Below are positions 9,170 through 16,100 of a stretch of DNA of 16,100 bases, one piece after another. Within the stretch, counting starts at the first letter, position 1. The number at the start of each line of letters is the position of its first letter. The stretch lies in IMG/VR virus record IMGVR_UViG_2778261673_000002; one strand, written 5' to 3'. Under the pieces are notes generated by a model that was not told the origin of the DNA, made no database searches, and saw nothing but the letters and a program-made list of their open reading frames with translations. Source of the stretch: a virus. Taxonomy: Duplodnaviria; Heunggongvirae; Uroviricota; Caudoviricetes. The translations under genes and the position numbers were made by a program.

Positions 9170-12850
<3,681 letters not shown>

Positions 12851-12876
<26 letters not shown>

Positions 12877-13396
12877 TCAGCAACCCCGGTATCAGTTCAT
12901 CCAGCGCGGCTGCTTTGTTCATGGCTTTGATGATATCCCGTTTCAGGAAATCAACATGTCGGTTTTCCAGTTCCGGAAAACGCCGCTGCACCGACAGGGG
13001 GATCCCGTCGAGAATACTGGCAATTTCACCTGCGATCCGCGACAGCACGAAAGTACAGAATGCAGTTTCCACCACTTCAGCGGAGTCTCTGGCATTTTTC
13101 AGCTCCTGTGCGTCGGCCTGCGCACGCGTAAGTCGATGGCGTTCGTACTCAATAGTCCCTGGCTGGAGATCTGTCTCGCTGGCCTGCCGCAGTTCTTCAA
13201 CCTCCCGGCGCAGCTTTTCGTTCTCAATTTCAGCATCCCTTTCGGCATACCATTTTATGACGGCGGCAGAGTCATAAAGCACCTCATTACCCTTGCCACC
13301 GCCTCGCAGAACGGGCATTCCCTGTTCCTGCCAGTTCTGAATGGTACGGATACTCGCACCGAAAATGTCAGCCAGCTGCTTTTTGTTGACTTCCAT
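12851..13396 (-). CDS. Nu1: Terminase small subunit Nu1 (181 aa)
   Basis: 181-aa ORF MEVNKKQLADIFGASIRTIQNWQEQGMPVLRGGGKGNEV... matches lambda Nu1 and is the first gene downstream of cos. Confidence 0.95.
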
Positions 13397-13784: not shown

Positions 13785-14018
13785 ATGTCAACGAAGAACA
13801 GAACCCGCAGAACAACAACCCGCAACATCCGCTTTCCTAACCAAATGATTGAACAAATTAACATCGCTCTTGATCAAAAAGGGTCCGGGAATTTCTCAGC
13901 CTGGGTCATTGAAGCCTGCCGCCGGAGACTGTGCTCAGAAAAAAGAGTTTCTCCTGAAGCAAACAAAGAAAAGAGTGACATTACTGAATTGCTCAGAAAA
14001 CAGGTCAGACCAGATTGA
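13785..14018 (+). CDS. Small hypothetical protein (77 aa) with ribbon-helix-helix-like N-terminal region
   Basis: ATG at 13785. The segment RNIRFPNQMIEQINIALDQKGSGNFSAWVIEACRRRL fits the RHH pattern (beta-strand, helix, G-turn, helix) of Arc/CopG-type DNA binders, with a basic N-terminus. The 5' part of the gene lies in lambda-like right-end sequence. Confidence 0.55.
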   Translation: MSTKNRTRRTTTRNIRFPNQMIEQINIALDQKGSGNFSAWVIEACRRRLCSEKRVSPEANKEKSDITELLRKQVRPD

Positions 14019-14075
14019 AGCAATTTAGATAATCGTGCAGACTACGCCCCATCATATCACATGGAAGGTACTACA

Positions 14076-14486
14076 ATGGCTCAGGTTGCCATTTTTAAAC
14101 AAATATTCGATAAAGTGCGAAATAATTTAAACTATCACTGGTTTTATTCTGAACTAAAACGTCACAATGTCTCACATTACATTTACTATTTAGCCACAGA
14201 GAATATTCATCTTGTTCTTGAAAACGATAATACGGTTTTAATAAAAGGACAGGGTAAGGTTGTAAATGTAAGATTTTCAAAAAATAAATGCCTTATAGAA
14301 GCCACCTTAAAAGGATTCAAATCAGGAGAGTTATCATTTTACGAATACAGGAAAAATCTTGCTACAGCAGGGGTTTTCAGATGGATTACAAATATCCACG
14401 AAAACAAAAGGTATTACTATACCTTTGATAATTCATTACTATTTACTGAGAACATTCAGAACACTACACAAATATTTCCGCACTAA
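14076..14486 (+). CDS. Hypothetical protein (136 aa), tentatively YbcV/DUF1398-like; AT-rich accessory gene
   Basis: ATG at 14076 preceded by GGAAGG at good spacing (the ORF-track start at 14061 is less likely). Visibly AT-rich codon usage unlike the structural genes. Size and position (between lysis genes and cos) resemble ybcV of lambdoid prophages; the family assignment is from memory and unverified. Confidence 0.55.
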
Positions 14487-14531
14487 ATCATAACGTCCGG
14501 TTTCTTCCGCGCCAGAACCGGACTCGCTGGC

Positions 14532-14696
14532 ATGATGAAATATGTGTACCCGGTAACCCCGGTGTGCATCGTTTTTGATTATTCCCGCACACTCACGCAG
14601 AAGGAATTCCCCGTCGGGCTACGGTCATGGTTAATGCGGGAATACGGCGACGATACAGCGTATGATGTGTCAGGCTTGAATACCTTTATCCGTTAA
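14532..14696 (+). CDS. Possible small ORF (54 aa), hypothetical
   Basis: Hand-translated ATG..TAA ORF MMKYVYPVTPVCIVFDYSRTLTQKEFPVGLRSWLMREYGDDTAYDVSGLNTFIR, below the ORF-track length cutoff. No convincing Shine-Dalgarno; may not be expressed. Confidence 0.25.
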   Translation: MMKYVYPVTPVCIVFDYSRTLTQKEFPVGLRSWLMREYGDDTAYDVSGLNTFIR

Positions 14697-15000
14697 AAGG
14701 GATATCAGTTAAGTTATCCCGTGTAGGGTATAAGCCATTGTCGAGACCACTCATTGAATGGCCTCTGCAATAACCGATGTCTTTCCATCAGTCCGCCACC
14801 ACAAAGAATCTTTTTTGCCTTAAGGCAGGAGCTTCATCTTTCAGTGGCTGCCAGTGTTATTTCCCCACTTACTGGCTTGGGTTGTTTCGTGGTACTGCCG
14901 TTAACTGGTGGCCCAGAATAAATTCCGGTTTCATTATCAAGCCCACCCGTAAATGGGCTTTGTAATGAAGAGTTGTTATGAAAATTGCTCTAAACAAGCA

Positions 15001-15489
15001 TTAATAGCCATCAGAAGTAATCGCTACAGATTTCAATCCCTCAATGTCATCCTTGGACAGGGCGAACCATTCACCGTGCTTTCTCTTTGCGGCAAATTTG
15101 CGATGAAGCATGTTTTCAGTTTCTCTTCCACCAGGGATCAGGCACTCAAGCTTCAAGCAGTCTGGTCCAGAGTTGCCAAGCGATTTGATGCGTTGTGGAA
15201 TGTTGGATGAATACCCAATTTTGGTTAGCCCAGTTTTCTTCGATGACAAAACGTATACCTGAGGAGGTTCTTTTCTCTGGTCTTCCATTACACGTCTCAT
15301 TGTTGCCATAAGTCCGCCGTGCATCAGCATTTCAACAAAGAACGCTGACCGAACACCTGACGACTTAAGCATGCCAGAAAATTCACTTGCCAATTCCATT
15401 AACTCTGCGATGTTTTCAGGAACTTTTTGGCAGTTATCTTCCTTGTATAAGGAAATCATTCTTTGAAGCTTTTCTTCTAATTGGTTCAT
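15001..15489 (-). CDS. T5orf172 / GIY-YIG-like domain protein (162 aa) with an uncharacterised helical N-terminal region
   Basis: C-terminal segment VYVLSSKKTGLTKIGYSSNIPQRIKSL....HRKFAAKRKHGEWFALS carries the GIY / KIGxT / R / H / EWF motif series of the T5orf172 (GIY-YIG-like) family. Start placed at ATG 15489 (MNQLEEKLQ..); the ORF-track start at 15525 is a GTG. Not part of lambda as I recall it. Confidence 0.7.
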   Translation of the reverse strand: MNQLEEKLQRMISLYKEDNCQKVPENIAELMELASEFSGMLKSSGVRSAFFVEMLMHGGLMATMRRVMEDQRKEPPQVYVLSSKKTGLTKIGYSSNIPQRIKSLGNSGPDCLKLECLIPGGRETENMLHRKFAAKRKHGEWFALSKDDIEGLKSVAITSDGY

Positions 15490-15638
15490 AGCGTCTTTAC
15501 CTTTTAGAAAGTGAGCCTGTCTCACAGAAAAGCCGCCCCGAGATGGTCGCCACCATATACGGCAGTTCTCAGGCTCAACTTTCTGAAAGGCTCGGGTGAT
15601 GTAATATGCGCGTGAGATGCGCTGTGAAATTCAGATGT

Positions 15639-15662
15639 AAAAAAAGCCCCGCATCGCGAGGC
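15639..15662 (-). terminator. Intrinsic terminator downstream of Rz
   Basis: Minus-strand RNA: GCCUCGC-GAU-GCGGGGC (7-bp stem with one G-U pair) followed by UUUUUUU, about 35 nt after the Rz stop codon. Confidence 0.55.
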
Positions 15663-15695
15663 TCATTAAATGGACTTTGTGATTTGCAAAAAAAA

Positions 15696-16100
15696 TTATT
15701 TCAGGCATTGCGTCCTGATGTATTCCTGCAGGTAGTTAACCTGCGCGGTTATCTTGTCGATTCCACTTCGGAGACGGTAATAATTGAGTTCAGCATCTGC
15801 TGTAAGTCCTGGGCTTTCTCCATCGCCCATGCCGCTGGCTCCGGTCGTTGACTTTGCACAGGTGGCGGCGACTTGCAGGCGCTTACGCCCAGCAGAAACA
15901 TCAGCACGGAGACTTTCGATAGTCGCGTTAGCATCAGCAAGCTCCTTTGTGTATCTTGCATCGAGCGCAGCAACATCACGCTGACGCATCTGCATGTCAG
16001 TAATTGCCGCGTTCGCCAGCTTCAGTTCTCTGGCATTTTTGTCGCGCTGGGCTTTGTAGGTAATGGCGTTATCACGGTAATGATTAACAGCCCATGACAG
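15696..16100 (-). CDS. Rz: Spanin inner-membrane subunit Rz, C-terminal part (N-terminus lies beyond the window end)
   Basis: The frame is open from the window edge: [57 protein letters not shown]..., matching lambda Rz closely in the first ~60 residues and diverging towards the C-terminus. Confidence 0.85.
15749..15934 (-). CDS. Rz1: Spanin outer-membrane lipoprotein subunit Rz1, embedded in the +1 frame of Rz
   Basis: [20 protein letters not shown] has a signal peptide with a lipobox (VSAC), followed by a Pro-rich segment ([16 protein letters not shown]). Lies entirely inside Rz, as lambda Rz1 does. Start chosen at ATG 15934; the ORF-track start at 15979 is an alternative. Confidence 0.75.

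What the first reader, a model, noticed from the sequence alone, without database searches (positions are those of the whole stretch)
15001..15489. Stand-alone T5orf172/GIY-YIG-like gene with its own transcriptional boundaries
The C-terminal ~85 residues carry the T5orf172 motif series (VYVL, KIGYS, R, H, GEWF); the ~75-residue N-terminal region is helical and not recognisably related to Bro-N/KilA-N or other common partners. The gene lies between two terminator-like hairpins (15639-15662 upstream; a weaker GCCCA..TGGGC hairpin at about 14940-14960 downstream). A weak sigma70-like promoter (TTCACA, 16-nt spacer, TATTAC) can be read around 15600-15630. This autonomous-cassette layout is typical of morons expressed from the prophage. 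Candidate roles are nuclease-based exclusion or defence, or a DNA-binding regulator.
Basis: partly seen in the sequence, partly recalled or inferred. Interest (0 to 1): 0.75.

Follow-up and report, generated by a model that had tools for sequence, protein, structure and literature searches.

The report
Swappable late-operon GIY-YIG nuclease gene
This is an intact small nuclease gene of the T5orf172/GIY-YIG family that fills a swappable slot between the lysis genes and the packaging genes of a lambda-like E. coli prophage; it is already annotated in databases, and the new points are where it sits and the folded RNA leader in front of it.

Summary

The gene is not autonomous. It lies in the late operon, just after Rz and its terminator. 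It is one of several alternative cargos (Rha, KilA-N, ANT, two T5orf172 types) that follow the same conserved leader and start codon. Phage L has this slot empty. The proposed promoter is no better than chance. The downstream hairpin lacks a U-tract and is shared with other cargos. The leader folds into a covariation-supported hairpin that hides the ribosome-binding site.

Most likely this is a late-expressed accessory DNA nuclease used in conflicts between mobile elements. That role is inferred, not shown. RefSeq already names the protein "GIY-YIG nuclease family protein". Interest is moderate to low.

The parts
15001..15489 (-). Complete ORF of 162 aa plus stop: a two-domain T5orf172/MUG113 (GIY-YIG superfamily) protein. 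It is identical to E. coli WP_016245257.1, which RefSeq calls 'GIY-YIG nuclease family protein'.
   Evidence: PHROG 4284 at E 9e-88. dN/dS 0.08-0.15.
15274..15489 (-). N-terminal domain, residues 1-72: an acidic (pI 5.3) three-helix bundle restricted to this family. Its role is unknown; targeting or oligomerisation is inferred.
15037..15258 (-). T5orf172/MUG113 nuclease domain, residues 78-151. Codons: Y79 (15253-15255), K90-I-G92 (15214-15222), R100 (15190-15192), catalytic E125 (15115-15117), H129 (15103-15105), G139-E-W-F142 (15064-15075).
15500..15590 (-). Conserved structured leader: a long imperfect hairpin whose basal helix pairs CCUUU with AAAGG, the ribosome-binding site upstream of the ATG.
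   Evidence: MFE z-score -3.8. RNAalifold gives 24 pairs, 10 of them with compensatory changes. 94.4% of cells are paired; 10 covarying pairs against 2.5 +/- 1.3 in shuffles (0/500), and slid controls give 36-54% paired. No Rfam family.
15634..15664 (-). Rho-independent terminator at the end of the lysis cassette. It is shared by all cargo types in the slot.
   Evidence: Annotated in HK106 and epsilon34. Aligned across phages.
15601..15628 (-). It is present as a string but is weak, at chance level and not conserved.
14939..14960 (-). A 9-bp GC-rich hairpin without a U-tract. It is shared with KilA-N cassettes and with the empty allele of phage L, so it is not a gene-specific terminator.
14968..15695 (-). 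The whole insert relative to the empty slot of phage L: terminator, leader, ORF and 33 nt. Recurrent mosaic joints lie at 15694/5 and 14967/8, with sub-joints at the ATG (15484-15489), at 15604 and at 15640.
   Evidence: blastn mapping against HK106, epsilon34, Sf101, mEp234, HK022, ev099, L, HK140 and Lyz12581Vzw.
15696..16100 (-). 3' part of the Rz spanin gene, with Rz1 embedded. It is the last gene of the lysis cassette and lies immediately upstream.

Best explanation
The gene encodes an intact, selected 18-kDa nuclease of the T5orf172/MUG113 branch of the GIY-YIG superfamily. It is one of several interchangeable cargo genes in an accessory slot of lambdoid phages, between the spanin gene Rz and cos/terminase.

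Shown: the domain identity, the GIY-YIG fold, conservation of the catalytic set (Y79, R100, E125), the slot polymorphism, the empty allele, and the conserved hairpin in the leader.

Inferred:
1. The gene is silent in the lysogen. A terminator lies upstream, there is no credible promoter, and the ribosome-binding site is sequestered.
2. It is transcribed only as part of the Q-antiterminated late transcript. Translation is gated by opening or processing of the hairpin. This tight control suits a toxic cargo.
3. The protein cuts or nicks DNA by one-metal GIY-YIG chemistry. The N-terminal helical bundle supplies targeting or oligomerisation.
4. Its role lies in conflict between co-resident mobile elements during lytic growth. 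By analogy with ICP1 Odn, it would damage competitor phage, prophage or satellite DNA.
For: - Active site: Y79, K90, G92, R100, E125 and H129 are 99-100% conserved in 148 representatives. E125 aligns with Odn E180, and the E180A change abolishes Odn cleavage (PMC8263062).
- Selection: dN/dS is 0.08-0.15 in both domains.
- Position: the gene sits after the spanin gene and before the terminase genes, in the same orientation, in phages with three other lysis-cassette types and in homologues down to 49% identity.
- Shared slot: the same leader precedes Rha, KilA-N, ANT and two T5orf172 types that are only about 30% identical to each other.
- Expression control: no promoter. The terminator, spacer, hairpin, ORF order is kept even where the sequences have diverged. 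The hairpin shows covariation.
- Foreign origin: low GC in the ORF.
- Precedent: T5orf172 proteins with an N-terminal targeting domain and a C-terminal nuclease act in phage-satellite conflict or as homing endonucleases (PMC8263062, PMC10448857).
Against: - No biochemical or expression data exist for this protein.
- The N-terminal domain is acidic and has no recognisable DNA-binding fold, so how a target would be recognised is unclear.
- Like Odn, the protein lacks the His or Tyr in helix 1 that canonical GIY-YIG enzymes have.
- CapR, a T5orf172-HEG relative that keeps only the N-terminal DNA-binding part, acts as a repressor (PMC8096241). Relatives of these nucleases can therefore have non-nuclease roles.
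- The other occupants of the slot are DNA-binding or antirepressor-like proteins, not nucleases.
- A weak local promoter cannot be excluded.
- The hairpin analysis rests on 12 sequences, and the structure was derived from that same alignment.
Confidence: 0.45

Rival explanations
1. Free-standing homing endonuclease gene. The nuclease cuts slot alleles that lack it in co-infecting or resident lambdoid phages. Repair from the conserved flanks then copies the cassette into the cut genome.
For: T5orf172 genes are the main putative homing endonucleases of ICP1 and T5-like phages. They cluster near terminase genes and at boundaries of genetic exchange (PMC10448857). Here the cassette has sharp recurrent joints, flanks conserved at 96-97%, and an empty allele in phage L. 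The ORF is 100% identical in 82 E. coli genomes, while the 1.8-kb region around it is 97-98.6% identical.
Against: No recognisable DNA-binding module is present. In Barth et al., 87% of T5orf172 homing endonucleases carry CapR-type zinc fingers, whereas here there is only one conserved Cys. There is a single copy per genome. The allele is rare: 82 genomes, against 13,982 places in 5,155 genomes that match at least part of the 14300-16100 region. The same leader variant is linked to Rha, KilA-N and T5orf172 cargos, so no immunity polymorphism is visible. The alternative alleles are other genes exchanged at the same joints, which ordinary homologous recombination explains.
Confidence: 0.2
2. A moron expressed in the lysogen that protects the host, by nuclease-based superinfection exclusion or defence.
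Against: No promoter-like site was found, and the proposed one is not conserved. The gene runs in the same direction as the late operon, behind a terminator, with its ribosome-binding site occluded. The PADLOC match covers only the shared domain. There are no partner genes.
Confidence: 0.15
3. A non-catalytic DNA-binding or protein-binding regulator. It would be functionally equivalent to the Rha, KilA-N and ANT 'Bro network' proteins that replace it in the slot, acting for example as an antirepressor-like or late regulatory factor.
For: Every other cargo behind the same leader is a Bro-network protein (network defined in PMC10111431). T5orf172 was first described as a partner domain of Bro-N and KilA-N (cited in PMC8096241). 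CapR, derived from a T5orf172 homing endonuclease, is a repressor (PMC8096241).
Against: The complete catalytic set is invariant across 148 diverged representatives. That is hard to explain without catalysis. CapR retains the DNA-binding part of such proteins, not the T5orf172 domain.
Confidence: 0.15

Closest known systems
Odn (Vibrio phage ICP1 gp88), an origin-directed T5orf172 nuclease (PMC8263062)
   Same: Both have an N-terminal non-nuclease domain and a C-terminal T5orf172 domain. The domains align at 27% identity (hhalign probability 91%), and Y, KxG, R and the essential Glu (Odn E180 = E125 here) are conserved. Both lack the canonical His or Tyr in helix 1.
   Different: The N-terminal domain of Odn is a RepA_N DNA-binding domain borrowed from its satellite target. 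Here it is an acidic three-helix bundle with no known relatives. Odn has its own promoter in a lytic phage, whereas this gene sits in the late operon of a temperate lambdoid phage.
ICP1/T5-type T5orf172 homing endonucleases, and CapR (PMC10448857, PMC8096241)
   Same: They share the T5orf172 domain, lie close to terminase genes and mark boundaries of mosaic exchange.
   Different: Those proteins carry one or more CapR/DUF723/DUF4397 zinc-finger DNA-binding repeats and occur in many copies per genome. This protein has no zinc finger and is single-copy.
Canonical GIY-YIG nucleases (I-TevI catalytic domain, Slx1, UvrC N-terminal domain, T4 EndoII, Eco29kI)
   Different: The second motif is KIG instead of YIG. 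There is no His or Tyr in helix 1. A family-specific GEWF strand is added. The generic Pfam GIY-YIG model is sub-threshold.
Rha, KilA-N and ANT ('Bro network') proteins at the same slot (Sf101 gp63, a Rha-like protein; HK97 gp73, HK022 gp73 and mEp234 gp58; ev099 gp69)
   Same: They occupy the same genomic slot, with the same terminator, leader and start-codon context, in the same orientation, and are of similar size at 160-235 aa.
   Different: The protein folds are unrelated and none has a nuclease domain.
Lambda bor and the morons of HK97/HK022
   Same: They are accessory cargo with low GC, inserted in the Rz-cos region or between late genes.
   Different: Classical morons carry their own promoter and terminator and are expressed from the prophage. 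Lambda bor is on the opposite strand. Here no promoter is evident and the gene runs with the late operon.

Membership tests
T5orf172 (PF10544) / MUG113 (PF13455), GIY-YIG clan | Profile-HMM score above the curated cut-off | tested here: met
   MUG113 scores 56 bits against a cut-off of 22.3. T5orf172 scores 41 bits against 20.
T5orf172 (PF10544) / MUG113 (PF13455), GIY-YIG clan | GIY-YIG alpha/beta fold (beta-beta-alpha-beta-alpha core) | tested here: met
T5orf172 (PF10544) / MUG113 (PF13455), GIY-YIG clan | Catalytic Tyr (strand 1), Arg (helix 1) and metal-binding Glu (helix 2) | tested here: met
   Y79 is conserved at 99%, R100 at 100% and E125 at 100% in 148 representatives. Y and R align with the GIY-YIG proteins 1zg2 and 2wsh. 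E125 aligns with Odn E180.
Canonical GIY-YIG (PF01541) | YIG second motif, His or Tyr in helix 1, and a profile score above cut-off | tested here: not met
   The score is 12.5 bits against a cut-off of 22.6. KIG replaces YIG, and position R+4 is Leu104. The same deviation is reported for Odn.
T5orf172 / GIY-YIG nucleases | Metal-dependent DNA cleavage or nicking | not testable with these tools
   This needs purified protein and E125A/R100A controls.
Free-standing homing endonuclease gene | Presence/absence polymorphism at a conserved site, with empty alleles | tested here: met
   In phage L, positions 14967 and 15694 are joined with only 33 nt between them. HK140 holds a different ORF between the same joints.
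Free-standing homing endonuclease gene | A separate sequence-specific DNA-binding module attached to the nuclease domain | tested here: inconclusive
   The N-terminal domain is an acidic helical bundle with no match to known DNA-binding domains. No zinc-finger motif is present.
Free-standing homing endonuclease gene | Cleavage of the cognate allele that lacks the gene, and super-Mendelian inheritance | not testable with these tools
   This needs co-infection crosses and cleavage assays.
Moron (autonomous promoter-ORF-terminator unit expressed from the prophage) | Own promoter | tested here: not met
   The scan found 0 promoter-like sites in 14400-16100, against 2.5 expected. The candidate TTCACA-16-TATTAC lacks the -7 T and is not conserved. 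A consensus scan cannot exclude a weak or activator-dependent promoter.
Moron (autonomous promoter-ORF-terminator unit expressed from the prophage) | Own downstream terminator | tested here: not met
   The hairpin at 14939-14960 has no U-tract. It is shared with KilA-N cassettes and with the empty allele.
Moron (autonomous promoter-ORF-terminator unit expressed from the prophage) | Inserted between conserved genes, with deviant base composition | tested here: met
   The insert is 14968-15695 relative to phage L. GC is 0.43 in the ORF, against 0.57 in the structural genes and 0.52 in Rz.
Bro-network proteins (Bro-N, KilA-N, Rha, ANT, ORF11CD3 and others) | Contains at least one of the network's named domains | tested here: not met
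   There is no hit to any of them in the whole protein or in the N-terminal part alone. The gene only shares the slot with these proteins, and T5orf172 is a known fusion partner of their domains.
Known anti-phage defence systems (PADLOC) | Full-length match to a defence protein model, with any required partner genes | tested here: not met
   The only hit is PDC-S57 at E 7e-6, over 74 residues of the shared domain. No partner genes are adjacent.

The most novel reading that the evidence does not exclude
The Rz-cos slot could be a dedicated 'socket' in lambdoid phages. It would consist of a terminator, a conserved hairpin that occludes the ribosome-binding site, and a shared start codon. This arrangement would keep toxic cargo doubly silenced until Q-dependent late transcription begins, and it would allow phages to swap effectors. 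On this reading the T5orf172 cargo is an Odn-like nuclease aimed at satellites (PICIs) or at competing prophages, and the Rha, KilA-N and ANT cargos are alternative weapons or regulators in the same conflict.
Probability: 0.15. Interest if true: 0.7.

Novelty: new variant of a known kind. Interest (0 to 1): 0.35.

Why it matters
The protein family is already catalogued and the gene is ordinary accessory cargo, so the finding as first stated is of limited interest.

Two points could still matter. First, the characterised T5orf172 proteins come mainly from the lytic vibriophage ICP1. This one sits in genetically tractable lambdoid coliphages (HK106, Chlobot, epsilon34), so the function of the domain could be tested directly there.

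Second, the slot has a leader conserved across P22-like, HK97-like, lambda-like and Stx phages, and that leader contains a covarying hairpin over the ribosome-binding site. This is a concrete, testable example of how mosaic phages exchange and control potentially toxic cargo. Parts of this Rz-cos region match in about 95% of complete E. coli genomes.

Tried and rejected
- A phmmer search of the protein against PDB sequences found nothing.
- NCBIfam gave no hit.
- Rfam gave no family for the leader or the flanks, at gathering or at relaxed thresholds. No tRNA genes were found.
- A profile search with the N-terminal domain alone found only fragments of the same family. There is no evidence that this domain is borrowed from another protein, unlike the RepA_N domain of Odn.
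- The upstream in-frame GTG at 15525 (174 aa) and the 224-aa database call (P0001) were rejected as real starts. Diverged homologues all begin at the ATG/MN position, and other leader variants have stop codons in that frame.
- A small conserved ORF inside the leader was considered and rejected, because indels break the reading frame between variants.
- The inner part of the leader hairpin was considered as a second intrinsic terminator and rejected, because the U-run is absent in the Klebsiella homologue.
- dN/dS against HK106 could not be computed because there were no synonymous differences between the two alleles; they differ by one residue.

Full report
**1. What is there**

The window is the late region of a lambda/DLP12-type E. 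coli prophage, read in reverse. Tail and head genes, portal, terminase (10951-12876) and nohD (12851-13396) are on the - strand. Two small + strand genes follow (YlcI/YnfO at 13785-14018 and DUF1398/YbcV at 14061-14486). Then come the finding's ORF and the 3' end of Rz/Rz1, from 15696 to the window edge.

The ORF at 15001-15489 (-) has an ATG at 15489 and encodes 162 aa. The same DNA is 100% identical in 82 of 5,426 complete E. coli genomes, where RefSeq calls it "GIY-YIG nuclease family protein" (WP_016245257.1). It is nearly identical in phages HK106 (gp64) and Chlobot.

**2. The protein**

- Residues 78-151 match Pfam MUG113 (E 6e-15) and T5orf172 (E 2.8e-10), both above the curated cut-offs. 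The generic GIY-YIG model is sub-threshold. The whole protein matches PHROG 4284, of unknown function.
- An exhaustive search finds more than 11,000 cluster representatives that share the C-terminal domain. Only about ten, each roughly 160 aa long, share the N-terminal part as well.
- AlphaFold gives a confident model (pLDDT 87) with three long helices (3-71) followed by a beta-beta-alpha-beta-alpha-beta-alpha domain.
- Structure searches with the whole model were uninformative.
- In 148 diverged representatives, Y79, K90-I-G92, R100, E125, H129, R136 and G139-E-W-F142 are 93-100% conserved.
- A profile of the domain weakly hits the GIY-YIG proteins 1zg2 and T4 EndoII. That alignment places Y79 on the GIY tyrosine, KIG on YIG, and R100 on the catalytic arginine.
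- Alignment with ICP1 Odn (BLASTP E 6e-5, hhalign probability 91%) places Odn Glu180 on E125. The E180A change abolishes Odn cleavage (PMC8263062).
- The N-terminal 72 residues are acidic (pI 5.3) and match no Pfam family. A profile search with them recovers only fragments of this same family.
- dN/dS against alleles that are 73-81% identical is 0.08-0.15 in both halves. The gene is a functional two-domain gene, not a remnant of a larger protein.

**3. The surroundings: a shared slot, not private boundaries**

Mapping by blastn against nine phages gave the following.

- Phage L has the slot empty. There, window positions 14967 and 15694 are separated by only 33 nt.
- HK140 carries a different 91-aa ORF between the same two joints.
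- Sf101 and the Stx phage Lyz12581Vzw share the terminator and leader down to the start codon (15484-15489), but continue into a Rha gene.
- mEp234, HK022 and ev099 carry KilA-N genes, with joints at 15604 or 15640 and at 14967.

An 18-nt core of the leader retrieved 120 IMG/VR loci. Among these, 103 complete ORFs follow the same leader and ATG. Representatives of the main groups were classified with Pfam.

- Most are Rha proteins, with or without ORF11CD3.
- KilA-N and ANT proteins, and an unassigned family of about 198 aa, also occur.
- Thirteen are T5orf172 proteins of two types. Nine are the window type. Four are the epsilon34 gp68 type, which is only about 30% identical to the window protein.

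These partners are the "Bro network" of domain-swapping phage proteins (PMC10111431). T5orf172 is a known fusion partner of their domains.

The upstream terminator (15644-15664), the leader and the downstream hairpin (14939-14960) therefore belong to the slot. The hairpin has no U-tract. The proposed promoter exists as a string but fails a lenient consensus scan that expects 2.5 chance hits in this region. It is also not conserved.

The gene is oriented like Q, the lysis genes and the terminase genes. From established lambda biology, Q-modified RNA polymerase would read through both hairpins, and the gene would be part of the late transcript.

Homologues of 49-83% identity occupy the same position, after the spanin gene and before the terminase genes. 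They do so in prophages with unrelated holin, endolysin and terminase types. The ORF has 43% GC, against 57% for the structural genes.

**4. The leader**

- Positions 15500-15590 fold into a long imperfect hairpin (z -3.8). Its basal helix pairs CCUUU with the AAAGG ribosome-binding site.
- The core sequence is nearly invariant across P22-like, HK97-like, lambda-like and Stx phages.
- More distant homologues, which precede T5orf172 alleles in Salmonella, Klebsiella and two metagenomic or unnamed-assembly prophage contigs (L140, L012), keep the helix through compensatory changes.
- On 12 sequences, RNAalifold predicts 24 pairs, 10 of them with double changes. 94.4% of cells are paired. Ten pairs covary, against 2.5 +/- 1.3 in shuffles (0 of 500), and slid controls give 36-54% paired.
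- Two caveats apply: there are few sequences, and the structure was derived from the same alignment.
- The leader matches no Rfam family.
- The order terminator, spacer, hairpin, ORF is kept even where the sequences differ.
- I infer a double lock that keeps the cargo silent until late transcription. This would suit toxic cargo.

**5. Interpretation**

The identity of the gene, as an intact T5orf172/GIY-YIG-type nuclease gene carried as swappable cargo, is well supported. Its biological role is not shown.

My best reading (0.45) is a late-expressed DNA nuclease used in conflicts between co-resident mobile elements, by analogy with Odn. The rivals are as follows.

- A selfish homing endonuclease (0.2). 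It fits the sharp joints, the empty allele and the position near terminase (PMC10448857). It is weakened by the lack of a DNA-binding module, the single copy and the rarity of the allele: 82 genomes, against 13,982 places matching at least part of the 14300-16100 region.
- A lysogen-expressed defence moron (0.15). No promoter is evident, and the only PADLOC hit is a domain-level match at E 7e-6.
- A non-catalytic regulator equivalent to the Rha and KilA-N proteins that replace it (0.15). This is weakened by the invariant catalytic set.

**6. Novelty and score**

The protein family is catalogued and annotated, and the domain has characterised relatives. This protein differs from them in three ways. 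It has a private N-terminal helical domain. It holds a fixed place in the late operon of temperate lambdoid phages. It sits behind a structured leader that it shares with unrelated cargos. I rate it a new variant of a known kind, with interest 0.35.

Noticed in passing
window 15500-15590 (- strand); also L138:4890-5000, L012:5890-6000, L137:4890-5000, L140:4890-5000: A conserved leader hairpin of about 90 nt lies in front of the slot's start codon. It occludes the ribosome-binding site and is kept by compensatory changes in diverged phages. It has no Rfam family. It could be a translational lock or an RNase III site.
   Followed up: partly
window 15484-15489; IMG/VR loci L017-L136: Unrelated cargo genes (Rha, KilA-N, ANT, an unassigned family of about 198 aa, and two T5orf172 types) all begin at the same ATG behind the same leader, often sharing the second codon (AAC/AAT). 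The mosaic joint therefore sits exactly at the start codon.
   Followed up: yes
window 14685-14967: A non-coding stretch is 94-97% identical in P22-like and HK97-like phages, which is more conserved than the neighbouring Rz gene. In phage L/ST64T it is the 5' region and N-terminus of orf118, so elsewhere it appears to be a remnant that serves as a recombination linker.
   Followed up: partly
L137:5489-6187 (Klebsiella variicola prophage): The 76%-identical T5orf172 homologue is followed by a 232-aa Endonuclease_NS (PF01223) gene that overlaps its stop codon by 4 nt. This suggests translational coupling of two nucleases.
   Followed up: no
protein P0002 (Salmonella cluster representative; 114 member sequences in the cluster): This cluster representative, 98% identical to the window protein, has GGWF instead of the otherwise invariant GEWF (E140G), plus D110Y. 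It is either a natural variant at a family-invariant position or a sequencing artefact.
   Followed up: no
window 15525 (GTG); proteins P0001, P0003, P0004: Some gene callers start the ORF at the in-frame GTG (174 aa), and one variant is called at 224 aa. Start annotation of this gene is therefore inconsistent across databases. Diverged homologues support the ATG at 15489.
   Followed up: yes
window 13785-14486 (+ strand) and 14812-14831: The YlcI/YnfO and DUF1398 (YbcV-like) genes have very low GC (0.365). They run towards the nuclease gene, antisense to the late transcript. A terminator-like hairpin on the + strand lies at 14812-14831.
   Followed up: no
window 14300-16100 compared with E. 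coli genomes: The ORF is 100% identical in 82 genomes, while the 1.8-kb region around it is 97-98.6% identical in the listed best matches. Pieces of this region occur in 5,155 of 5,426 complete E. coli genomes, with a median of two places per genome.
   Followed up: partly
window 15749-15979 (- strand, +1 frame inside Rz): An embedded Rz1 reading frame with a lipobox-like LLGVSAC lies inside the Rz gene, as expected for a lambda-type two-component spanin.
   Followed up: no
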